64,000 nucleotides of DNA from Eledone cirrhosa (taxonomy: Eukaryota). The notes beneath the pieces were generated by a model. That model had not been told where the DNA came from, did no database searches, and saw only the letters and a program-made list of their open reading frames with translations. The translations under genes and the position numbers were made by a program. Location of the stretch: assembly GCA_964016885.1 (NCBI GenBank), contig OZ024743.1, positions 96,596,001 through 96,660,000 on the forward strand. The letters are read 5' to 3'. Of the stretch, positions 34,014 to 56,640 are shown one piece after another (within the stretch, counting starts at the first letter, position 1; the number at the start of each line of letters is the position of its first letter).

Positions 34014-34201
34014 TATATATATATATATATATATATAAATGAAAGGTATAGAAAACATTGTAGCGAAAAGCCAACCGTATTCAATAATATATATGTATAT
34101 ATATTCTGGACTTTTTTTATTTAAAAAAATTTTTTTTTTTTAGTCCAGAATTAGCCGTCGAAACGGCTTGAGCTCAGCCGTCGGGGTCCTACTCGTTCCT
34201 A

Positions 34202-34266
<65 letters not shown>

Positions 34267-34390
34267 GTAAAAGTTCTATTTAAATTGTTGGGATACAACA
34301 TGCAAATAACTGATATAAAGCACTCAACAAATTTCGGGAGTAAAAATACGATATATTAACAAATGGAAACTATATTTATAAAACCATATT

Positions 34391-34453
34391 TATTTCATTA
34401 TACATTTCAAGGACACCAAGTTAAATTATGGTGTGCTTTCATCAGATAAAATA
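34391..34453 (-). ncRNA. Type I hammerhead ribozyme
   Basis: TATTTTAT-CTGATGA-AAGCACACCA-loop-TGGTGTCCTT-GAAA-TGTA-TA-ATGAAATA. Stem II has 9/10 pairs. Same family as 24072 and 24286. Confidence 0.78.
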
Positions 34454-35407
34454 TAATATAGATCAGTTTTATAAATAAATATTGACATACCCTTAAAGAA
34501 TGCGACCATTCCTGTTGGAAGCTCCCGGATAGTGGGGTTATAAATTTATTCATACTATTATGCAAATTAGTGTTGGATATTTTTAAATCACAGTAGATTT
34601 AAAATAAGCCGTTGGGGTATGCAGAAAGGGAAAGAGAAAAAAAAGAAAAAAGCAAACTTTAAGAGGAAAATAAGAAAACAAGAAAAAAAGAAAGAGAAAG
34701 AGAAGAAAAAAAGAACAAAGGAAAGAGAAAGCCCTAAGTGATAGGTTGTTGTATTAGCATAACTTTTAAGATGAAGTGAAAAAATAAATATTTTTTGGAT
34801 GAGTAAAGTAAATAAGCGTGAATGGAAAATAAGCGTGAATGGAAAACGAATTTTAACCAGTGTTTAAATCTGATTAAATGTTTAGTTTACCAATTAAATT
34901 ATCCATCAAATTATTGAGATCTATACATTAAAAGTTGAGATCTATATATTATTAAAAAATCTATATATTATTAAAACCCATATATTATTAAAAGAATTTA
35001 TTCATATATATATACATACGCACACATATATACATATATAAATATATATATATACCTACACATACCATACACATAGATAAAGGACTTTTTATGTATAAGA
35101 TATAGGAATTTTCCTAAACTCATAGATTTTTCTGAGAAACCAGAGAAAAAACCCGGAGAAAAACATTTCTATGTAATAGCAAAACAGCGTGAAGGAAATT
35201 AAGTTATTTACTTATATTAAATGTTATAAATCTCAAGATAACAAAGGAAATTTAAGATTATAGAAACCTTATGTTATAATACAAACCTTATATTATAAAT
35301 TTTATATTTACTAAATCCACCTGTTATGTAGTTGTGACTGTTATTATATAAGTTTGTTTATCACGAACCTTAAGGAAACCCTTATAACCTAGTGCATTTG
35401 AATTGTA

Positions 35408-35445
<38 letters not shown>

Positions 35446-35496
35446 ACTCACACATATATACACATAGACATAGATACGCATACAGGTAGATATGAA

Positions 35497-35560
<64 letters not shown>

Positions 35561-35627
35561 AAGGTTTAGCAAATAATGAAAAAGTTTCAAAATAAATTTT
35601 AAAAAATTGACTTTACCTACTATAGTT

Positions 35628-35711
35628 ACCTTTACCGATCGGTTTCGAATCCCAAAAATAAAACGGAGACCATACGGCCTTCGTTGCAAAGAAAGATTCT
35701 CGTCAGAAGGT
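35628..35711 (-). ncRNA. Type I hammerhead ribozyme, intact core (unit 1)
   Basis: ACCTT-CTGACGA-GAATC-(43 nt with an inner 9/10-bp helix)-GATTC-GAAA-CCGATCGG-TA-AAGGT. All core nucleotides and three stems are present. Confidence 0.9.
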
Positions 35712-36110
35712 TCTTTTCATTCAAAGAATATAAAATTCCTGAATTTAAATCACAAACTAGCGCTATCAAAACTGTTCCTGGGATGAGAGTGGATGATGTA
35801 GAAACAGGTTTATCAAGGGCCGAAGCAAAGATAGAGGCAAAAGGAGGTAGGTCAAACTAGCCACAGCTATTGCTAGCAGCAGTCAGAACGACCAAATTTG
35901 TTTTCAACGTTAGTGGAGGTAGTAGTAATAGGATATACGTTCCTTCACGCACAAGGCACCAAGGTACGCATGTATTGTCCAACCAAATGCCAGTGTGGTT
36001 CAATGGCGGGTTAATAAATTAACGAGCCAGAACAAATATAAACAAGGTTTAGCAAATAATGAAAAAGTTTCAAAATAAATTTTAAAAAATTGACTTTACC
36101 TACTATAGTT

Positions 36111-36194
36111 ACCTTTACCGATCGGTTTCGAATCCCAAAAATAAAACGGAGACCATACAGCCTTCGTTGCAAAGAAAGATTCTCGTCAGAAGGT
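36111..36194 (-). ncRNA. Type I hammerhead ribozyme, intact core (unit 2)
   Basis: Same as 35628-35711, with one substitution in the stem II extension. Confidence 0.9.
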
Positions 36195-36725
36195 TCTTTT
36201 CATTCAAAGAATATAAAATTCCTGAATTTAAATCACAAACTAGCGCTATCAAAACTGTTCCTGGGATGAGAGTGGATGATGTAGAAACAGGTTTATCAAG
36301 GGCCGAAGCAAAGATAGAGGCAAAAGGAGGTAGGTCAAACTAGCCACAGCTATTGCTAGCAGCAGTCAGAACGACCAAATTTGTTCTCAACGTTAGTGGA
36401 GGTAGTAGTAATAGGATATACGTTCCTTCACGCACAAGGCGCCAAGGTACGCATGTATTGTCCAACCAAATGCCAGTGTGGTTCAATGGCGGGTTAATAA
36501 ATTAACGAGCCAGAACAAATATAAACAAGGTTTAGCAAATAATGAAAAAGTTTCAAAATAAATTTTAAAAAATTGACTTTACCTACTATAGTTACCTTTA
36601 CCGATCCTTGTTTATATTTGTTCTGGGTCGTTAATTTATTAACCCGCCATTGAACCACACTGGCATTTGGTTGGACAATACATGCGTACCTTGGCGCCTT
36701 GTGCGTGAAGGAACGTATATCCTAT

Positions 36726-36780
<55 letters not shown>

Positions 36781-36824
36781 CATATATACACATAGACATA
36801 GATACGCATACAGGTAGATATGGA

Positions 36825-36913
<89 letters not shown>

Positions 36914-37333
36914 TATATACAGTACATAGTATAATTGAAGTACATAATATATAAAAATGAATTATATTACGATTTGGAAATATATTCCTACAATTATAAG
37001 CAATATAACTTTAGAGCAATATAATTTTAAAAAATTACAGAATATTTTAAGATATAATTTTAAAATAAGAATATGTCTAAAATAATTCAGTATAAAATTT
37101 AAATTTTTTTTATATAATATTTAACTCTCAGTATGTTTAACTTAATTTTATAACTATATGGGAAATTTTCAAAAATAGGAGAAACTTTTCAAAGAAAATA
37201 TTTTCCCCTTTTAAGAGCTTTCAGTATGTTTATATAGGAAAATTTTTTTTTATATTTGAGAGTTTAAGCAGTCAAATGAAGTAATCTAATGATTTATCGA
37301 TAGGTTCAATATATTAATAGAATTAATTATATA

Positions 37334-38605
37334 TTACATTTTAAATTTATATTTAAATGTTGAGTTCAATCTATGTCTGCAGCAACTGAAGAGATTGCTT
37401 CTTACATTTAGGGAATTTTTGCTTTTTAATATAAAGAATATTTCATCTATACAAAGATCACAATTTTCTGAAGAGGAGTTAAAAGGAGTAGCTTTTGAAA
37501 TAATATTCCAAAGTAACGAATATTTAACGTTCTTTAATTTGAGGTCCCATAATAAGCTAGATAGAGAAGTTGATGTTTTGTTTAAATGCGTAAAAGAGCT
37601 TTTATGGTTATTAAAACGAGATTTAAAATCTGTGAAAGTAGATCCTACATAATTAAATGAATTTAAATTAGTTATTACATTACAATTATATACTATATTT
37701 TTAGCTAAGCAATTGTTATTTAACGGACAATTAGATTTATTTCTACAGTTACATTTATCAAATTGGATATTGCTGGGGTTATTAGTGGTATTTTGGCTAG
37801 GTTTTAAATTTCTATTATTAATTCTATTAATATTCTGCGCTAAATTTTTGGTGGATGAATAAGTTAATTTTATAGTATGTCTATTAAAAATTGAGTAATA
37901 TCTATGTGTTCTCGGGAAGCATTTGTCAAGAGCTTTAAAGAATAGTTTAGCAATAGGAGTTTTAATATTTAATGAGAAAGGAAGAGCAAACCATAATATA
38001 TTCCTAGTTCTATTTCTTTTTTTGTTTTTCGAATTATTGTAAGGTTTTCTATTATAGTTGTTAAAATTGTTAGGATTATGGTTATTTGTTATATTATTAT
38101 TATCAATGTATTTAATTTTATTTCTATATCCAGCTCTACCTAACGCTTCATTGTAATAATGGGCTTTATCATCAAATATATTCTTATTAGCTGAAATTCT
38201 AGAAATGCGTTGCTGTACAGAATTCACTATAGTATTTTTAACGGATCTGGGGTGATTAGAGTTAAAATTAAAGTAGTTTAAGTTCTCGTTTAGTTTGTGA
38301 CAAGGATAATGAAGACATGTGTTAAGGTTTAATGTTACATCTAGAAAATTAACTATTTTATGGTTATTCTCTATTTCTACTTTTAGATTAAGGTAATTAA
38401 AAAATTGTATAATTTCTTTTCTTTTCCTATTTAATTCACAGTTATTATTTTCGATAAGTAAAAGCATGTCATCACGATATAAACCTCCGGTCATCTCAGG
38501 TATTTTTCTATGTAGAGAATTATTTATAAAGAGGCCCACAAGATCCGTTACCTGAGCGGAATCGGATGATGCCATAGTGATATCGAAATTATTATTTCTA
38601 TCTGC
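37334..38605 (-). pseudogene. 5'-truncated Penelope-like element ORF (RT C-terminal half + GIY-YIG endonuclease)
   Basis: FDITMASSDSAQVTDLVG, LYRDD, VNFLDVTL, SNHP, CNCRNKSNCPLNNNC, IVY..YVG..FKSRFNNH, CDLCIDE, CRH. Uninterrupted for about 420 codons. The first ~55 aa of the tracked ORF is read-through of adjacent repeats. Confidence 0.9.
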
Positions 38606-38607
38606 TC

Positions 38608-38638
<31 letters not shown>

Positions 38639-38858
38639 ATAGATCAGATAGGGTATGGTAAAATACCAGGTGGACCATAACTCACCAGAGTACTCGATAC
38701 TTGGGGTAGTAGAGTGGGTAATATGAAAAGATTCAGGACCCGACAGCTGAGCCAGCGGGGTTCTGAATCTTTTCATATATATATATATATATGTGTGTGT
38801 GTATATATATATATATATATCATCATCATCACTGTTTTACGTCCGTTCTTCCACGCTA

Positions 38859-44440: not shown

Positions 44441-46115
44441 TGTGTGTGTATATATATATATACACACACACACAGATATATATATATATCATTTAGGTTT
44501 GTAGTCACAATTATGTTGTCACAATTATGAGCAACACATCGTTACCAGCGTATTCTGGCAATGCTAAATTGTGGTTTGCCCAGCTAGATTCGTATTTTGC
44601 TGCCAACGGAGTACAGGCAGCACAGTAAAAACTACATGTGCTAATCAGTGGAATTTGCACTTCGCTGGCAACTACAGCAAAGGACATCCTCGCAGATCCT
44701 CCACAAAGCACCTCCCACGAGTCTCTGAAGACAGAGGTACTGCGTAGGGGGACAGTAGGTCGTCTGAGAGTAGATTCCGATCCTTATTAGAAGATGAAAA
44801 TCTGGGGGACAGAACTCCTTCAGAGTTTTTACGGCGTATCCGAGAACTCAGGGATGCTGTGCCTGAAGACAGTTCCTTTGTAAAGAAGTTATTCTTCTCC
44901 CAATTGCCAACCAATGTGCAAACCTTATTGGCGAATACGGTTGACACCAGTTCTATAGAACAAATTGCTGCCTTTGCGGACAGAATTATGGAATTTTGTA
45001 GGGAACCTACCTCGGCTGATTCAGTCATTGCCTCTACTATTCTTAAAGAATAGCCTTCCTCACCTAGTGAGGAAGCCATGTTGAGAGCTATTGACGGGTT
45101 AACACGTCAAGTAGCTAAACTGTGTCGTGATCGAGCGCCACCTAGGTGGTATTCACAAAGTCAGTCTTTTTCTTCTCATCGACGTACCAACTCCCCCGCC
45201 AACAGTTCTTCTTTGTGTTGGTACGATGCCCGTTTCCATGATAAGGCACAACATTATATTAAGCCCTGCTCTTTTGGGGCATCGGAAAACTAAGTTTGGA
45301 GAGTCTGAGCATGGCAGACCTCTCCCTTAACATTTCACCTTATCGTGCTTTCTTCATCAGAGACCGAGTCTCAAACAAGTCATGGTCGACACAGGATCAA
45401 GTTGCTGTATTTGGCCCTTACAGTTCAGCTCTACCAAGCCAACTTTTTCCGGCATTTCTTTGTATACAGTGAACCAGTCTCCTATAAAAACCTATGGACA
45501 GATATCTTTATCATTGGACCTAGCTTTTCGTCGAGATTTTAAATGGATTTTCTTCATTGCCGACCTACCTCATCCTATTCTCGGCGCGGATTTCTTACAC
45601 CACTATTCACTTTTGATAGATGTCAGGAAACAGAAACTTGTGGATAGTACCACATCCTTATCTACGCCTACTCGTAAATCTACTGCTGCTTCTGTCAGTC
45701 CGTTGTTTTTTTGTGGCTGCCGCTGGAAACCAGTTTAATGCACTCCTTACTTCGTTTCCCGAGTTAATGGATATTTCATTTAAACTTACCCAGGCAGTCC
45801 ATTTGGCTCAACACTTCATTACAACGACTGGTCCACCTGTTTTCTCTCATCCATGAAGGTTGGCTCTGGATAGACTAAAAAAAGCCCGAGACGAGTTTGA
45901 GCACATGCTCCAGCTCGGTCTTATACGACCTTCCACCAGCCAATGGCCATATCCACTGCATTTGGCTCAAAAGGGTGAGACGGATTTTAGACCGGTAGGA
46001 GATCACCACACCTGATCGTTATCATTTACCCAACTTACAGGATTTTTCATCTGTTCTGCATGGATGCACAATATTTTTCAAAATAGATCTAGTACGTGTA
46101 TACCACCAGATACCC

Positions 46116-46985
46116 ATGAATCCAGAAGATATACCAAAGACAGCCATGACCACCTCCTTTGGTTCATTTGAATTCCTGTCCATGCCTTTTAGCTTGCGGA
46201 ATGCCTCTAGTACGTTCCAACGTTTTATCGATGAAGTCATGCGTGGATTGGATTTTGTGTTTGCTTATGTGGATGACCTCCTAATAGCCAGTGACTCAGC
46301 TGAACATCATCATCAACATCTATCTCAGTTATTTCAACATCTTCAATCTTACCAGGTCAGAATCAACCCAGCTAAATGTGTGTTTGGTACAGATTCACTG
46401 GAATTTCTAGGACATCTTATAGATTCAGAAGGCATTCGACCTTTGCCATCTAAGGTGGAAGCGATTCAGCGAATCGCACCTCCCACCTCATTGAGGCAGT
46501 TACATCATTTCTTAGGATTAATCAACTTTTATCGTCGTTTCATCCCTAACTGTGTAGACAAGTTGTTTCCCTTGACACAGTTTTTAAAGGCGGCGAAAAA
46601 GAAAGATGCTCCCATTTTACTTTCTGCCGATGATTTGCAATCTTTAGAATCCGTCAAGTCCAAAATAGTTAAAGTTTCCTTCCTGGCTCATCCTTTTGCG
46701 AATGCGAGGCTATCCTTAACTGTCGATGCGTCCGACCATGCTGTCGGAGCAGTCTTGCAACATACAATCAACCACCAGTTTCAACTACTGGCGTTTTTCT
46801 CACGCCAACTAAAACTAGCAGAGCAACTTTACAGTACTTTTGAGAGAGAGCTTTTAGCAGTTTATCTTGCTGTGAGACACTTCCACCATCTTCTTGAAGG
46901 TCGGGAGTTCACGGTATTCACAGACCATAAATCACTCACATTCGCTCCTCAATCTCGGTTCGACAGATACTCTCCGAGGGCATAG
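46116..46985 (+). pseudogene. Gypsy pol: RT/RNase H fragment
   Basis: [50 protein letters not shown]. Confidence 0.92.
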
Positions 46986-47333
46986 AGGCATTTGGATTTC
47001 ATCAACCAGTACACCAGTGACATTCGTCATATAGCTGGAGCTGCCAATGTACCCGCGGACGCATTATCTCGACTTTCTGTGTGTGCCCTTGCGTCTCCTG
47101 AACATATGGATTTGGTTGCCATTGCGACTGAACAACCTTCTTTGGATTCTCTGGATACTTCTTCTACCCAATTTTCCTGCTGTAAATTTTAATATTTACC
47201 TCTTCCGTCTGCTGAAGGGAAAATTCTTTGCGACATTTCTACTGGCTCACCCAGACCACTTGTTCCAGTTTGTCATCAGCGTACCATTTTTGATGCACTT
47301 CATTCCTTTTCGCATCCCGGCATAGCTGCCACG

Positions 47334-48209
47334 GTGAAGCTCATCACAGCCCGATTCTTCTGGCCTAACATGCGTCATTTAATCAGCGGTTGGGCACGTT
47401 CTCGTTTGCAGTGTCAGCGCTCTAAGGTTCATCGGCATGTTCGCGCTCCTCTTGGTAAATTCAGCTCGCCGGACGCTCGTTTCCATCACATTCACATGGA
47501 TATTGTTGGTCCTTGGGCCGTGAGTCATGGGTTCACATATATATTGACCTGTATCGATCGTTTCTCTCGGTGGCCTGAAACCATACCCCTAGTGGACATA
47601 ACAGCCGAGTCCGTTGCCCATGCTTTCATTTCCAATTGGGTTGCTCGCTTTGGTGTTCCTTCTAAAATAACCACAGATTGGGGACGCCAGTTCGAGGCTT
47701 CCTTATTTTGTGAAATATCACGACTTTTGGGTGCTCATCACATTCATATGACCAGCTATCACCTAGCCTTCAACGGAATGGTGGAGAGGTTTCACAGACA
47801 GTTGAAAGCTGCACTCCGCGCTACTCCTGATCCGCATCGTTGGACCAAATTTTTGCCAATCGTGCTTCTTGGTTGTCGTTCTGCTGTTAAGACAGATTTG
47901 GGTTTCTCCTCAGCTGAACTTCTTTACAGTACCACGTTGACTCTTCCCAGTCAAATGCTAGCACCGGTTGATTCATCGCTTCTTGATCCAACATATGTCA
48001 CCAGGATTCGTTTTTACTTTTTGGATCTTCCACTAATGAACCCTCGTGACCAGTCTATTTCTTCTGCTGTTCCATCGGACATCTCTACGTGGACACACAT
48101 TTTTATACGGAATAATTTCGTCAAGAGACTGCTTACGTCACCCTATAATGGACCTTTTCGTGTGCTTTTGCACACACCCAAACATATCACAGTGGCGGTC
48201 AATGGTTGA
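47334..48209 (+). pseudogene. Gypsy pol: integrase fragment
   Basis: HMDIVGP, IDRFSRW, ITTDWGRQF, NGMVERFHR (DDE) and GPF motif. Confidence 0.92.
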
Positions 48210-50949: not shown

Positions 50950-53900
50950 TCAAACTACAGACGTATATTTAGAGTTCACTCGGACCATTCTCGCTACATT
51001 CACCCACCTTTCAACAAACTTACTAGAAAGCAGCACTTGCCTCCCCACCCTGATTTTCCTCTTCAAGTGAAACTTGAAAAAATTAATCAGGGATTCGCCG
51101 AAGAGGAAAGTGTTTGTCTTTAACCCTTTTAACCTTGTCCACCACACAATCTCTTTCGCCATGGCCACCAGGCAGATGAAAACCGCCTGCCCTTCCTCCT
51201 CAAAGGAAGACGGCGAGACCATCTGCACAATGGACTCAGTCGACAACCGGATCAGTCCCACACATGACAGCAACTGTTCGACATAGCTCCACAAGTCAGC
51301 AATGCTCGGGCACTGAACGAGTGCGTGCACAACGGTTTCGTCGCTATGCGCGCATCTCGGACAGGCTCGGCTGACGGCACTTCCGTGCCTGTAGAGCTTA
51401 TCTCGAACCGGCAGCGCTCCCCGGTAGCACTGCCAGGCCAGGGATTTTTGGAAGTTATCCATAGGCCCCGGGCTGAAAGTTCTCCGGAAGAGAGCAAGCA
51501 GCTGATCTTCTTCGACGCCCAGGATCTCTCCGAGAACGGCGTCGCTCTTCCCCTCCACTAGTCCTCTATAGAGCGCCAAGGTGGATGTTCCACCGATACT
51601 GGTGCCCAACTGGGAGAGGGCAGTGAGCGCCTGGAGATATTCTAGTTTCCATGCGCTATCCCTCGGTCTTTTTCTGACCCAGGACTGCAGCTCCATCAAG
51701 GAGACGAGCTGTGGGAAAATGTGCCTGGCGAACGGCGACCACACCCATTCACCATCAAGGAAGCACCAGAGATGTCGCATACTCAGCGCATGTTTGCGCA
51801 TCATCAGCCATGGCATGCCCAGTCCTCCACGCAACGGGTGTTGACAGCAGATGGATCATCTGACCATGGGAGCGCGTCCCTTCCATAAAAAGCGGAAGAG
51901 GAGGCGCTCCATTTTGGTGGGAGTTGGGCCGGGGCAGGGACGACGGTGAGGCAGGGATGACGGATGCGATGTACGCATTCGCCACCTCCGCCCGGCCTTT
52001 CAGGGACAGCTTATTCTCAGCCCATTTCTGGGTGAGGGAGGCCACCCTGCTCGTCATCTCTTTCTAGTTATTCTCCATCTGGAGGTCCGGTCCGAACCAG
52101 ACCCTGAGCAATTTAACCGGTCCGTCCGTCCAACGCCCCACGACGCTGTCGGACGGCATGGACTTTCCTCTCCAGGTGCCTAGCTGCAAGCCCACCGACT
52201 TTTCCTGGTTTATCTTTGCTCCTGTCACTGCTTCGTATTCCTTGAGAGCGGTGCCGAGCATCTGGACGTGTCTGATGCTTGACACCACCACGGTGACGTC
52301 ATCAGCGTAAGCCGACTCGGATCTCCCGCATCCTAGTTCGCGTGGGACGCCCCTCATCGCCCCCAGTTTGTGCAGTAACGGCTCGAGAGCCAATACGTAC
52401 AAGAGGGACGAGAGGGGACAACCATGTCGGACTGAGCGCATAATGCTGAACGGCTGCGACAGGTGACCGTTCACCCTCACAACTGAGCAGATGTCGCTAT
52501 ACATTGCTGCGATCCAACGCCTGAAAACGGGCCCAAAACCGGCTGCCTCGAGGACCGCCGCCAGGTACCGATGGTCGACCCTATCGAATGCTTTGGATTG
52601 ATCCAAGTTGATCAGGGCCCCACCCTTGCCAGTTTCCTTAACCACCCTCTCTATGATGTATCGCATGAGGTGGAGGTTGTCGTGTATGGATCTGTCCGGA
52701 ATGGCGCTTGTCTGCGCCTCTCCCACCAGACCCTTGACGACAAGCGCCAACCTCGTTGCTAACACCTTGGCCAAAATCTTGAACTCTGCGTTTAGCAGGG
52801 TAATGGGCCTGAAATTATCAATAACATCCCCCTTGTTCGGGTCTTTTCTCAGCAGCGCCACTGCTCCCCGGCTCACAAAACTGGGAATGCTCCCATTCTG
52901 CTGCCAGTTGCAGTAGACGTCTGCCAAGAGGTCACCGAACAAGTCTGGCATAAATGCATAAAGCTCGTAGGGCAGACCATCTAAACCTGGCGATTTACCT
53001 CTTGTGCAGTTAGCCATCGCTTCCCGTATTTCACCGGCTGTTATTGGCTTTTCGCAACACTGTGCTGCGGTCGTCGAGAGCCGAGGCTTCCGTCGAGGTA
53101 TGCACTGAAGTCCATGCCCCGATCCGGGCCACCGCTGCTCCCGAACAGTTCAGCAAAGTGCTGCTGAAAAGCTTCACACATCCGCTCGGGTTCGAGCATC
53201 ACGCACCCGTTTTGGTCAGACAAAGACCGAATTGTGGCTTTATTGCCACGTCGCGCCTCTGCCACCCGGGCCCATTGGACGGCTTTTGTTCCCTCGTGTT
53301 TCAGAGCACGTGCTCTAGCTCTGACAATGCAGCCTTCGTGTTTTGCGTTGAAGAATTGGTCGAGTGCCAATCTCGCCGCAAGCACGTCGGTTGCGATGCC
53401 TGTCCTAAACGCCTCTTCTAGCTTTCTGACTAGCTCTCCCTCTACTCTATTTTCCTCTATCACTACTCCTTTGCTAAATCTAATCGACTCTACTTTAATT
53501 GCCCTTTTCAGGGCGAACCACCACCTGTTGTTGACGACCGCTCCCGTCAGTGCCCGCTTAACTTATACGCTAATCCGGTCTCTGTAGGCCTTGCGCGCCG
53601 GGAAAGACGCGTTCAGCTTCCAGTAACCAGGTCCTTGTCTATGAAGTCTGTCTATGTCAATCTCACAGATCACAAATTTGTGGTTTGTGTAGTCGACTAT
53701 TTTAAATTGTGGACAACTTATACTAGCCTTATCTAGTTCCCTGCAGAATACCCTATCTAGATACGATCTGGATGACCCGATGCGGTTTGTCCATGACCAC
53801 ATTGGCACATTCGGGTGATCCAGTCGATACCTGTCAGACAGTTCAAAACGTCTGAGCAGGTTGGTGAGGCTCTTGCACCCTCCTCTCCTATCCACTAGCC

Positions 53901-54359
53901 CCACACGATCCCAGCGTGCATACAAGATACCGTTCCAGTCGCCCACTAACACTAAAGAGCGGGACGTTCCAAGAAAGGTCTCTAGACGTCTGAAGAAATC
54001 TGGCCGTCCTGCCCCTGTTGGGGCGTAGACAGCTACTAGCCTGAAAGCATTGCCTTCGCTGCCGGTCACGTCCAGCACCACTGACTTACCTTCTGGGTCC
54101 AGGAAGATGGCCCGTATCGCGAGATCCAAGCCTCTCCGAAAACGGATGGCAACCCCTCCCCCGATCCTGGATGGCTGGGAGATGCGTATACATCGTAGCC
54201 GCCGAAGATCGGTGCGAAGGCCCGTGCCTCGGAGATTCTGGTTTCACTGATGGCCACCACATCTATGTTTAGTGACCTGAGGTCATTGAGCAGGTGACCC
54301 TGCTTCCAAGATGACCCCAGGCCATGTGCATTTATACTGCCTATTCTGAGTACAGCCAT
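50950..54359 (-). pseudogene. Tx1 ORF2 (APE-RT-zinc finger), broken into at least 6 frames
   Basis: Track ORFs 54066-54395, 53563-54129, 53041-53463, 52064-53017, 51755-52057 and 50950-51834 are collinear. ATG at 54359. Confidence 0.92.
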
Positions 54360-54391
54360 GTTGGATGAGAAACGGGGAAAATGAGAAAGGG

Positions 54392-56439
54392 TCACTTACC
54401 TTGTTCGTGTGGTGAAGGGACAGTAGAACCGTCCCTTTCGCTGGTCATGGGTGTTTCCAAGAGGATGTCAGTGTATATCCTCTTGGTAACCGTCCCTCTG
54501 AAGTCTCCAACTGCGTTGGGGAATTTTTGTTTTAAAGGTTTGTATTGTTCTATTGAGATTTCGATGATGCTTATGTTTGTCGTGAGAGTTCTTGGTGTTG
54601 GTGGGGTGTAGTAGTTTTTTTCCGTGTTGTCTGTGTGCAGCTTTATATATTTTATGAGTTCTTTTTTTGCTATGTTTATGGCTGTGTACTTTTTGGGGGG
54701 AGGGGTGATTTTGTTGCCGTTTCTTCTTGATGCTGTTTGGTGTGTGTGTCTTGTTGTGTTTGCGTTGTTGGTGTTTGTGGTGGTGTTGCTGCAAGTTTCC
54801 TTGCTGCCTTTACCCCTCTTTGTATGCCTTCGCTTTTGGAGGGTGAATCTAAGGGTTTTTTTGTTTTTTGTTTTTTGTGGCAGACTGTTTGCCACGTCAC
54901 TCCTGCCTCAAACTCCATGTCGGATTCTGTGGCATCTGGGAGGGGTATGTGCTCCACGGCTGTTGGTGGTGGTAGTGGAGCCCTCTTCGGCAATGTTGTT
55001 GCTGGTGTAGCTATTTCAAATGTAGCTATTGGTGTTGCCACTACTGATGATGCTGCTTTAGTTATCCGTGGCCTTGGTACGGGTGCTACGGACGTTGCCC
55101 TCCTACTCACCGTGGAAGGGGCTTCTTCGTTTGTTGCCTGTCCTGCTCTTGATAGCAGCGAACCAGGTATTGGAAGGAGAGGGGCCCTCTTCGGTGTCTT
55201 CTGCGGGCAAAAGGCCCTGAGGTGACCTTTCGACCCACAGAGATAACATTTTGGCCGTCTTCCTTCTACACTTATAGGGAGTTGGAGTCCTTCCTCAAAG
55301 TCTATGATATCGGGGATAGCCTCGATACATTCCTGGTCAGTTTGTATAAGCATTTGCATGCCTATACCTGACCAGTTCTCTCTCCCTATTTTTTCTACCT
55401 GCAGCATGGTCGCCCTGTTCTCAATTCCAGCAAGGACAGACACGGCCAGCCAAGGTATGGGCACGTTGGGTGGGACCTGGGTCACTTTGACCCTCACAAT
55501 TTTCTGCCCGCAGTAGGAGGGCACCAAGATTAACTCCTCACTCTTTAGGGTTTCCAAAGAGTGAGACTTTGCTTCCTGGGGGGTGGCGAAAAGTACATCT
55601 ACTGTGGCGTACTTTCTGCCACGGGTGATGTGGGTTTTGCGTGCCCAGACGCACCCCAAGGCCTTTTGGATTTGAGCCTCCATGGCTCTCTCCACTCGAT
55701 GTGAGATTTTGCTTACGGTGCGGTAAGTCACGGTTCGTAGCTGTTGGTCCTTGAAAAAATCGGGTGGAGGTTTCAAGGAAACTCTATTTGCGCTTCTTGT
55801 CACCATGGCCCTTGCGACTGCCATCTCCTCCTCTGTGACTAACACTGTCTCCATATTTCGGGCGACACCTGCAAAAGAAGTGGTCCCCTTTTCAGCAGCA
55901 CCACTATTGCTGCCGCTACTGGTCTTACTGGTGGTGCTGAGGTCGCTATTACAGGTATCGGTGTCATTGTTGTTCTTTTCGCTGGTACAGTTGTTGGTGT
56001 TGTTTTCGTTGATACTGTTGCTGCTGTTACTGTTATTGTGGCTGTTGTTATTATTGTTGTTTTTGTTGATACTGTTCCTACTATTATTGTTGTTATTGTC
56101 ATTGTTATTGTCGTTCTCGACCTTACCGCTGTTATTTTTGTTATTGTCGTTCTCGACCTTACCGCTGTTATTTTTGTTATTGTCGTTCTCGACTTTACCG
56201 CTGTTATTTTTGGTATTGTTGTTGGTGATGTTGTTGGTGTTATTGTTGGTGTTGTTTGTGTTAGAAATATTTCGTAATTTTAAATCTGTAACAATCTTTT
56301 TTTCCTTTGTAATATTTTCGTTTATATTTACCTTCTCTGGACCGCTGTCTTGTTGACATGCTGATAAAGTCTCACTCTCTCTGTGTTGTCTGACAGCGCG
56401 CTCTCTCTTTTTTGTGTTATCCATGTTGAAACTTTTCAA
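54392..56439 (-). CDS. Tx1 ORF1 (Asn-rich N-terminus, CCHC knuckle), one probable frameshift near 54870
   Basis: 587-aa ORF with CYLCGSKGHLRAFC and NNKNNSGKVEND x3. It continues in ORF 54392-54895 to EQGK*. Confidence 0.82.
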
Positions 56440-56640
56440 AAAATATTTTTACACAAATACGAATACGACACCCCGTAAAGGGGTGCCGTATTATTTACTA
56501 GTGAACCCCTGTATTAGGTGGATCACTTCTTCTAAACTTTTATCAAATTTAAAACTTGAATAAAAGGTTTAGAACGGTTGAAAAAGAGGTAAAACGTTGA
56601 AAAAGACTGGAGGCGATAAGAAGCGCGGCTTCACCAACCA

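What the first reader, a model, noticed from the sequence alone, without database searches (positions are those of the whole stretch)
35556..36728. Candidate 483-nt retrozyme: tandem non-coding unit with one intact hammerhead per copy
Seen: 2.2 near-identical 483-bp units, each with a complete type I hammerhead on the minus strand (CTGACGA, GAATC/GATTC, GAAA, palindromic CCGATCGG, UA site, ACCTT/AAGGT) and no ORF. Known: metazoan non-LTR retrozymes are tandem hammerhead-bearing repeats that self-cleave to monomers and circularise, and are thought to be mobilised by PLEs. Inference: a young family yielding a 483-nt linear/circular RNA. Copying through two intact ribozymes suggests rolling reverse transcription of a circle. 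I cannot establish novelty without a search.
Basis: partly seen in the sequence, partly recalled or inferred. Interest (0 to 1): 0.85.

Follow-up and report, generated by a model that had tools for sequence, protein, structure and literature searches.

The report
Hammerhead retrozyme with two fixed ends
This is one copy of a young, non-coding jumping repeat that carries a hammerhead (self-cutting RNA) motif and sits in TA microsatellites, often as two back-to-back arms ending at two fixed points, the same footprint as the Penelope-type retrotransposons of this genome, whose enzymes likely copy it, probably from a circular RNA.

Summary
Real and correctly classed. The array sits in a (TA)n inside the 3' UTR of an unrelated Hydra-clade Penelope-like element (PLE). 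The genome has 1,196 exact copies of the ribozyme's 3' half. None of 100 position-ordered copies runs into a PLE ORF, so it is a non-autonomous retrozyme and not a pseudo-LTR. Ribozyme core and stems are conserved, with compensatory changes. Copies end at +80 or +188-194 after the cut site, and 46 of 47 resolved inverted insertions pair one end of each kind. The resident Hydra PLE follows the same rule (10 of 11). 5' ends do not pile up at the cut (6 against 4.8 expected), so the template was continuous there: a circle, or an uncut multimer. Cleavage, circles, expression and the partner enzyme are untested. New member of a known kind; the scan noted the same two-arm rule in two other genomes.

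The parts
35553..36606 (-). Direct arm: 8 nt + two full 483-nt units + first 80 nt of the next unit; 3' end at unit +80, joined to (TA)n
35633..36115 (-). The one monomer this locus could release (cut to cut, 483 nt, 38% GC); +1 of the unit numbering is 36115
   Evidence: release is predicted
36116..36598 (-). Upstream full unit
35628..35711 (-). Complete type I hammerhead, predicted cut 35633/35632
36111..36194 (-). Complete type I hammerhead, predicted cut 36116/36115
36594..36606 (-). Partial third hammerhead (part of stem III and 3' strand of stem I only; cannot cut)
36606..36727 (+). Inverted arm, unit +69 to +190, 3' end joined to (TA)n; 1-nt overlap with the direct arm at 36606
35499..35557 (.). 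(TA)n target, left part
36726..36746 (.). (TA)n target, right part
37334..38609 (-). Host element: 5'-truncated ORF of a Hydra-clade PLE (RT C-terminal part with YRDD, CxCx5C linker, GIY-YIG-like endonuclease)
34262..37333 (-). 3' UTR of the host PLE, interrupted by the retrozyme; ends at +143 after its own hammerhead, in (TA)n
34393..34451 (-). Host PLE's own type I hammerhead, unrelated in sequence to the retrozyme's

Best explanation
This is a non-autonomous hammerhead retrozyme, a 483-nt non-coding unit dispersed in hundreds of (TA)n sites, that is likely copied by the reverse transcriptase-endonuclease of a Hydra-clade Penelope-like element, probably from a self-cleaved and re-ligated RNA circle. 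Steps: (1, inferred) a tandem copy is transcribed; the hammerheads cut out a 483-nt monomer and a host ligase closes it. (2, ends shown, enzyme inferred) the PLE protein nicks (TA)n and primes reverse transcription inside the RNA at one of two fixed places, +80 or +188-194, each at a short UA match to the target. (3, shown) copying runs through the cut site without preferential stopping, at a roughly constant rate of about 0.0023 stops per nt, giving 0 to 10 or more units. (4, structure shown, mechanism inferred) in about half of the insertions the other target strand is primed at the other fixed site and the two cDNAs are joined back to back, mostly over 0-4 nt of overlap. The window copy is one such event: a 1,054-nt +80 arm and a 122-nt +190 arm. 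Confidence about 0.95 for retrozyme, 0.8 for Hydra-type PLE machinery, 0.6 for the circle.
For: Dispersed young family: 2,118 candidates, 40 scored, full units 97-100% identical; 310 exact +80/(TA)n junctions; 1,196 ribozyme halves. Non-autonomous: 0 of 100 position-ordered arms continue into coding sequence, 91 of 100 cross at least one unit junction; subfamilies down to about 76% identity keep a unit of about 480-487 nt. Ribozyme selected: departures from the majority base 0.1-1.1% in core and stems against 4-8% in the body of the unit, 94 insertions; 5 of 15 pairs with compensatory changes. Two-site rule: 46 of 47 resolved unique inverted insertions pair +80 with +188-194, binomial P about 1e-9 or lower; no 190/190 pair among the 51 distinct places listed (my reading of the list). 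Both arms belong to one subfamily: 1.0% cross-arm against 5.8% median between insertions. The resident Hydra PLE has two fixed ends (+46-56 and about +143 after its hammerhead), both into (TA)n, and 10 of 11 head-to-head pairs are mixed. No excess of 5' stops at the cut: 6 against 4.8 at +1..+12, 144 arms. Two-armed insertions with 10+1 and 5+4 near-identical full units, plus partial ones.
Against: No cleavage, circle or expression data. The hammerhead has a minimal palindromic stem III and its fold lies 2.1 kcal/mol above the predicted minimum. Minimal PLE hammerheads cut poorly as monomers (PMC4209133), 8 of 9 predicted Xenopus retrozymes did not cleave (10.64898/2026.07.22.740005), and the Anolis Poseidon protein used uncut RNA as its main template (PMC11167929). 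The circle is not unusually self-paired (z -1.3). No autonomous PLE with sequence likeness to the unit was found; the neighbouring Hydra family is unrelated and its tail is about 87 nt, not 110. Some arrays show post-insertion tandem duplication (L232, L276, L277), which can make multimers without a circle. Poseidon primes without homology to the target (PMC11167929), unlike the UA matches seen here.
Confidence: 0.72

Rival explanations
1. Same element and same PLE enzyme, but the template is an uncut linear multimer transcript of a tandem locus; the ribozyme acts late or in another step, and long arrays are renewed by tandem duplication in DNA.
For: No 5' pile-up at the cut site fits this equally. 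Uncut RNA was the main substrate of Anolis Poseidon in vitro (PMC11167929). Duplication patterns in L232, L276, L277. Arrays of 9-10 units exist that could serve as sources.
Against: Strong conservation and covariation of the ribozyme means cleavage matters, and a cleaving ribozyme on a linear template should leave 5' ends at +1. Only 6 of 100 arms reach 1,046 nt or more, so linear copying alone would shrink the arrays, yet the lineage has lasted to about 76% divergence. Within-insertion variants are mostly singletons, 150 of 169 sites.
Confidence: 0.3
2. The mobilising enzyme is another PLE clade (Neptune, Naiad, Poseidon) or a LINE, not Hydra.
For: (TA)n bias, inverted 5' copies and tails are shared by several PLE clades (PMC8557442). 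No sequence link to a Hydra pLTR was found. I searched the genome with one Hydra protein only.
Against: Hydra elements are very abundant here (61,447 first-look candidates; several families at 26-60% identity in the loci) and show the same two-site, mixed-end rule downstream of a hammerhead. Fixed internal 3' ends with no poly(A) are unlike LINE insertions (general knowledge).
Confidence: 0.15
3. The array is only the pseudo-LTR of an autonomous PLE, seen as 5'-truncated copies.
For: Its insertion anatomy is that of a PLE; a PLE ORF lies 600 bp away on the same strand; 10 of 100 loci have Hydra-like ORF pieces in their flanks.
Against: The neighbour is the host, not the parent: relatives run straight through the site without the array and share no sequence with the unit. 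Copies extend 5' into more unit, never into an ORF; 39 of 47 non-inverted 5' ends abut TA-like sequence.
Confidence: 0.04
4. A satellite or minisatellite spread at DNA level (unequal crossing-over, DNA circles, Helitron-like copying), with the hammerhead a passenger.
For: Tandem form; a few duplicated loci (C17 near 7.69-7.70 Mb, L227/L228).
Against: Fixed 3' ends, random 5' ends, polarity tied to the ribozyme strand, independent (TA)n flanks and a selected ribozyme all point to target-primed reverse transcription.
Confidence: 0.02

Closest known systems
Metazoan non-LTR retrozymes (PMC7229834: passages and Discussion read; bioRxiv 10.64898/2026.07.22.740005: parts 1-3 of 5 read, main text to the end of the Discussion)
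   Same: Short non-coding tandem unit, one type I hammerhead per unit, low GC, dispersed as monomers to multimers, co-resident with PLEs; proposed there to be PLE-mobilised through circles.
   Different: 483 nt is above the 170-400 nt of the 2020 paper but inside the 51-972 bp of the 2026 preprint. Long stem II with minimal stem III. RNA not shown here. The text I read of either paper does not describe fixed two-site ends or inverted arms (terms 'inverted', 'truncat', 'microsatellite' occur 0 times in PMC7229834). Unlike the Xenopus cases in the preprint, no parent pLTR was found.
Hydra-clade and other EN+ Penelope-like elements (PMC8557442: passages and the Hydra section read)
   Same: 5' truncation, partial tandems, inverted 5' copy, a 'tail' often at one end only, (TA)n targets, hammerhead near the end.
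   Different: No ORF; the tail is about 110 nt rather than 30-40 bp; the mixed-end rule is counted here (46 of 47).
Poseidon of Anolis carolinensis (PMC11167929: parts 1-2 of 4 read, whole main text)
   Same: Two internal reverse-transcription start sites downstream of a hammerhead, bounding the tail; both target strands are cut and extended.
   Different: There the sites are adjacent, lie in the ORF, show no homology to the target and no strand preference; here they are 110 nt apart, sit at UA matches to (TA)n, and the two arms of one insertion use different sites.
PLE hammerheads and the circle hypothesis (PMC4209133: part 2 of 4 read)
   Same: Small palindromic stem III; proposal that circles template more-than-unit copies.
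   Different: Those motifs lie in pLTRs of autonomous elements.
L1 twin priming
   Same: Both target strands prime on the RNA and give a 5' inversion joined by microhomology.
   Different: In L1 the second site is variable and the arms barely overlap; here it is fixed and the arms often copy the same unit positions.

Membership tests
Type I hammerhead ribozyme | CUGANGA, GAAA and UH core with stems I-III, stem I open | tested here: met
   core invariant in 10 subfamily representatives
Type I hammerhead ribozyme | Structure kept by compensatory change | tested here: met
   5 of 15 pairs changed on both sides, 94.7% of cells paired, 0 of 500 shuffles reach the covariation score; the shuffle ignores relatedness; 10 of 12 representatives used
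Type I hammerhead ribozyme | Match to an Rfam hammerhead model | tested here: not met
   no hit at gathering score or at E up to 10
Type I hammerhead ribozyme | Self-cleavage | not testable with these tools
   needs in vitro transcription
Metazoan non-LTR retrozyme | At least two consecutive tandem units each with a complete type I hammerhead | tested here: met
Metazoan non-LTR retrozyme | Non-coding, low GC, dispersed multi-copy | tested here: met
   (38% GC)
Metazoan non-LTR retrozyme | Unit of a few hundred nt | tested here: met
   483 nt: above the 170-400 nt of PMC7229834, within the 51-972 bp of the 2026 preprint
Metazoan non-LTR retrozyme | Expressed as linear and circular monomer RNA | not testable with these tools
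Metazoan non-LTR retrozyme | Highly self-paired circle | tested here: inconclusive
   63% paired, -103.0 kcal/mol, z -1.3 against 60 shuffles
Pseudo-LTR of an autonomous PLE | Repeat joined to an RT/GIY-YIG ORF | tested here: not met
   0 of 100 position-ordered arms; none in the loci either
PLE-type insertion | Fixed 3' ends with a tail, 5' truncation, inverted 5' copy, microsatellite target | tested here: met
Hydra clade (host element at 34262-38609) | DKT, RWK-like motif, CxCx5C linker, C-terminal EN without CCHH, CxxC and CxH around E and N, hammerhead, (TA)n target | tested here: met
   read from translations of the window ORF and full-length relatives L091-L093 against PMC8557442 section 11; RWR in place of RWK
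Hydra clade (host element at 34262-38609) | Placement in an RT phylogeny | not tested
   no reference PLE set at hand; Pfam gave no hit for the window fragment; the Atlas gave PLE-like clusters only

The most novel reading that the evidence does not exclude
PLE integration is an asymmetric two-primer reaction: one complex primes the two target strands at two different fixed RNA sites flanking the tail, on one circular template, which explains at once the tandem pseudo-LTRs, the inverted 5' copies and the one-sided tail of Penelope-like elements; this retrozyme is a minimal 483-nt substrate for it and an independent lineage that has kept its ribozyme without a sequence-related parent.
Probability: 0.4. 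Interest if true: 0.7.

Novelty: new member of a known kind. Interest (0 to 1): 0.45.

Why it matters
That animal retrozymes are moved by PLEs rests so far on co-occurrence and pLTR similarity (PMC7229834; 10.64898/2026.07.22.740005), and how PLEs make their tandem and inverted structures is described as undefined (PMC8557442). Here a retrozyme and an autonomous Hydra PLE of the same genome leave the same countable footprint: (TA)n target, two fixed ends after the ribozyme, one of each per inverted insertion. That gives sharp predictions and a short RNA for the existing in vitro PLE assay. The element class, the tail and the two start sites are all in print, and the scan has seen the rule in two other genomes, so the gain is mechanistic support and not a new system.

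Tried and rejected
1) 5' ends piling up at the ribozyme cut, suggested by the first, similarity-ranked loci: not seen in the position-ordered sample (6 against 4.8 at +1..+12; 12 against 8.7 at -10..+12). 2) The neighbouring PLE as parent: rejected, it is the host of the insertion. 3) The duplicated ~50-nt stretch on both sides of the array as a target-site duplication: rejected on the sequence; the order of its pieces fits a tandem repeat of the host UTR, and some empty-site relatives show double hits there. 4) Rfam: no hammerhead hit; the MIR841 and MIR1435 hits below threshold only reflect the inverted arm. 5) Pfam on the window PLE fragment: 0 families. 6) Sequencing runs: no RNA holder listed; three runs kept as contigs were laid and gave no piece spanning the insertion. 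7) Search for an autonomous partner by patterns shared across subfamilies and by ORFs in flanks: none joined to the unit. 8) Excess of first-pass stops of the +190 arm at +30..+80 (11 of 46, rate ratio 2.5, p about 0.01) would fit collision of two enzymes on one template, but the window was chosen after seeing the data, so I treat it as a hint. 9) A Pol III B-box-like reading of the stem II/GAAA stretch (consensus recalled): not kept in diverged subfamilies, dropped. 10) Literature searches listed no paper stating the mixed-end rule; supplements were not read, those of the preprint are closed, and subscription papers are not covered. 11) Earlier-finding look-ups by place and by sequence were empty.

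Full report
OBSERVATION. The window has a tandem array at 35553-36606 with period 483 and 2.2 copies; the copies differ at three positions. On the minus strand each full unit ends in a type I hammerhead: stem I ACCUU/AAGGU, core CUGACGA, stem II GAAUC/GAUUC extended by a 45-nt hairpin, GAAA, a two-pair palindromic stem III, and a GUA cut triplet. Two are complete (35711-35628, 36194-36111); the third position (36599/36598) has no core. The last 122 nt of the flagged region, 36606-36727, are an inverted copy of unit positions +69 to +190, counting +1 as the first base after the cut. Both outer ends join (TA)n. There is no ORF of 120 aa within the unit. Rfam finds no hammerhead. The hammerhead fold is 2.1 kcal/mol above the minimum-energy fold of that stretch.

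SURROUNDINGS. A 5'-truncated PLE ORF lies on the same strand at 38609-37334. Full-length relatives (743-aa frames in L091, L092) carry DKT, RWR, a CxCx5C linker and a C-terminal endonuclease without CCHH, the marks given for the Hydra clade (PMC8557442); no tree was built. Its relatives align to the window on both sides of the array and lack it, so the array is inserted in a (TA)n of this element's 3' UTR, which continues to its own hammerhead (34451-34393) and ends at 34262. This PLE family shares no sequence with the unit: of the 39 loci other than the window's own (L032-L060, L091-L100) two had short AT-rich hits and the rest none.

FAMILY. The host genome is 3.0 Gb; I did not determine the organism. 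A unit search gave 2,118 candidates, 40 scored, full units 97-100% identical. Exact patterns gave 1,196 ribozyme 3' halves, 310 junctions of +80 to (TA)n, 104 forward-strand junctions of the +190 region to (TA)n (the reverse count is inflated by the variable gap), and 926 read-throughs of +80 across subfamilies; reversed controls were 0. Subfamilies reach about 76% identity and keep units of about 480-487 nt. I mapped the first 100 of the 310 +80 ends in genome order. None continues into coding sequence; 91 cross at least one unit junction. Of 47 non-inverted arms, 39 abut TA-like sequence at the 5' end. Ten of the 100 loci hold Hydra-like ORF pieces in a flank, none joined through unit sequence; this test used one Hydra query.

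RIBOZYME UNDER SELECTION. In 94 position-ordered insertions, departures from the majority base are 0.5% in the core, 0.4% in stem I, 0.1% in stem II and 1.1% in stem III, against 3.0% in the stem II extension, 4.0% at +81..+190 and 7.8% at +191..+400. Among 10 of 12 subfamily representatives (two with an internal deletion or duplication left out), 94.7% of cells pair and 5 of 15 pairs change on both sides; the shuffle control ignores relatedness.

END RULE. Of the 100 arms, 52 have an inverted arm at the 5' end. Three were cut by the fetch and two were duplicates (L134 is the same insertion as L133; L228 duplicates L227). Of the 47 left, 46 end at +188 to +194 and one at +80 (binomial P about 1e-9 even if +190 were chosen 60% of the time). 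Longer fetches added three more mixed cases (L271-L273); another 80/80 case is L062. Among 51 distinct +190 places listed no two lie back to back. The +190 ends fall at 188, 190-191 and 193-194, each a TA step of the unit. At the inversion joint 31 of 52 overlap by 1-4 nt and 11 are blunt. The two arms differ by 1.0%, like units within an arm (0.8%) and unlike the median between insertions (5.8%); these figures include gap-placement noise. The autonomous Hydra family has two fixed ends too, +46-56 and about +143 after its hammerhead, and 10 of 11 head-to-head pairs are mixed; three of these span whole elements with TA runs between the arms. In print, PLE insertions often have an inverted 5' copy and a tail at one end only (PMC8557442), and Anolis Poseidon starts reverse transcription at two internal sites bounding the tail (PMC11167929).

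TEMPLATE. If cut linear RNA were copied, 5' ends should gather at +1. They do not: 6 stops against 4.8 expected at +1..+12 among 144 arms, and the stop rate of +80 arms is flat along the unit. My first impression of a pile-up came from similarity-ranked loci and is withdrawn. The template is thus continuous across the cut, either a circle or an uncut multimer. For the circle: the ribozyme is under selection; single two-armed insertions hold 10+1 and 5+4 near-identical full units plus partial ones; 150 of 169 variable sites covered by three or more copies are singletons; and most arms are short (6 of 100 reach 1,046 nt), so arrays need a way to regrow. Against: uncut RNA was the main template for Poseidon, 8 of 9 predicted Xenopus retrozymes did not cleave, a few arrays show later tandem duplication, and the circle is not unusually stable (z -1.3). 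I put the circle at about 0.6.

COMPARISON AND NOVELTY. It meets the sequence criteria for a metazoan non-LTR retrozyme; the RNA criteria could not be tested. That PLEs mobilise retrozymes through circles is a published hypothesis, and a 2026 preprint derives retrozymes from PLE pLTRs. Six literature searches listed no statement of the mixed-end rule; supplements and subscription papers were not seen. Two earlier notes of this scan describe the same two-arm rule for hammerhead repeats in other genomes; I had counted it here before reading them, and they are not independent support. Verdict: new member of a known kind, with a useful mechanistic footprint shared with the resident Hydra PLE. Interest 0.45.

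Noticed in passing
window 34262-38609: Hydra-clade PLE family, very abundant (61,447 first-look candidates for its endonuclease part), with open frames up to 743 aa and a 3' UTR of about 1.7-2.1 kb that itself contains (TA)n targets.
   Followed up: partly
window 24034-24388: Short two-armed insertion of Hydra-type terminal sequence with two hammerhead-bearing arms, both ending at the near site (the one unmixed pair of 11).
   Followed up: partly
window about 34140-34200 and about 38690-38760: Pieces of another high-copy small repeat with a hammerhead-like 3' half and a long palindromic stem III, also in (TA)n; very deep in the laid runs.
   Followed up: no
window about 18130-18210 (+): Hammerhead of a further family, similar to motifs in L059 and L062.
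   Followed up: no
L081, L106, L111, L123, L205, L259: A repeat family with a hammerhead-like motif whose core reads U at position 3 and A at position 8 instead of C and G (a known compensating pair, recalled), with a stem I and cut site resembling this retrozyme's and its own fixed ends in (TA)n.
   Followed up: partly
L211, L243, L256, L271-L274: A very young subfamily about 91% identical to the window unit, with units identical between loci and longer arrays (up to 11 full units) than older copies; older arrays may have collapsed by recombination.
   Followed up: partly
L062; L133/L134: Rare insertions with both arms ending at +80; in L062 the flanks are mirror images too, suggesting a fold-back repair event.
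   Followed up: no
L007, L008, L073, L075, L081, L143, L229: Several other Hydra-like PLE families (34-57% protein identity to the neighbour family), at least one with its own distinct hammerhead upstream of the ORF; candidates for the mobilising partner.
   Followed up: partly
window 19608-22626, 45331-48209, 50950-56448: Broken retrotransposon ORFs: a LINE with endonuclease and RT, an LTR-type pol region, and a second LINE-like element with an upstream ORF; named by eye from the translations, not by search.
   Followed up: no
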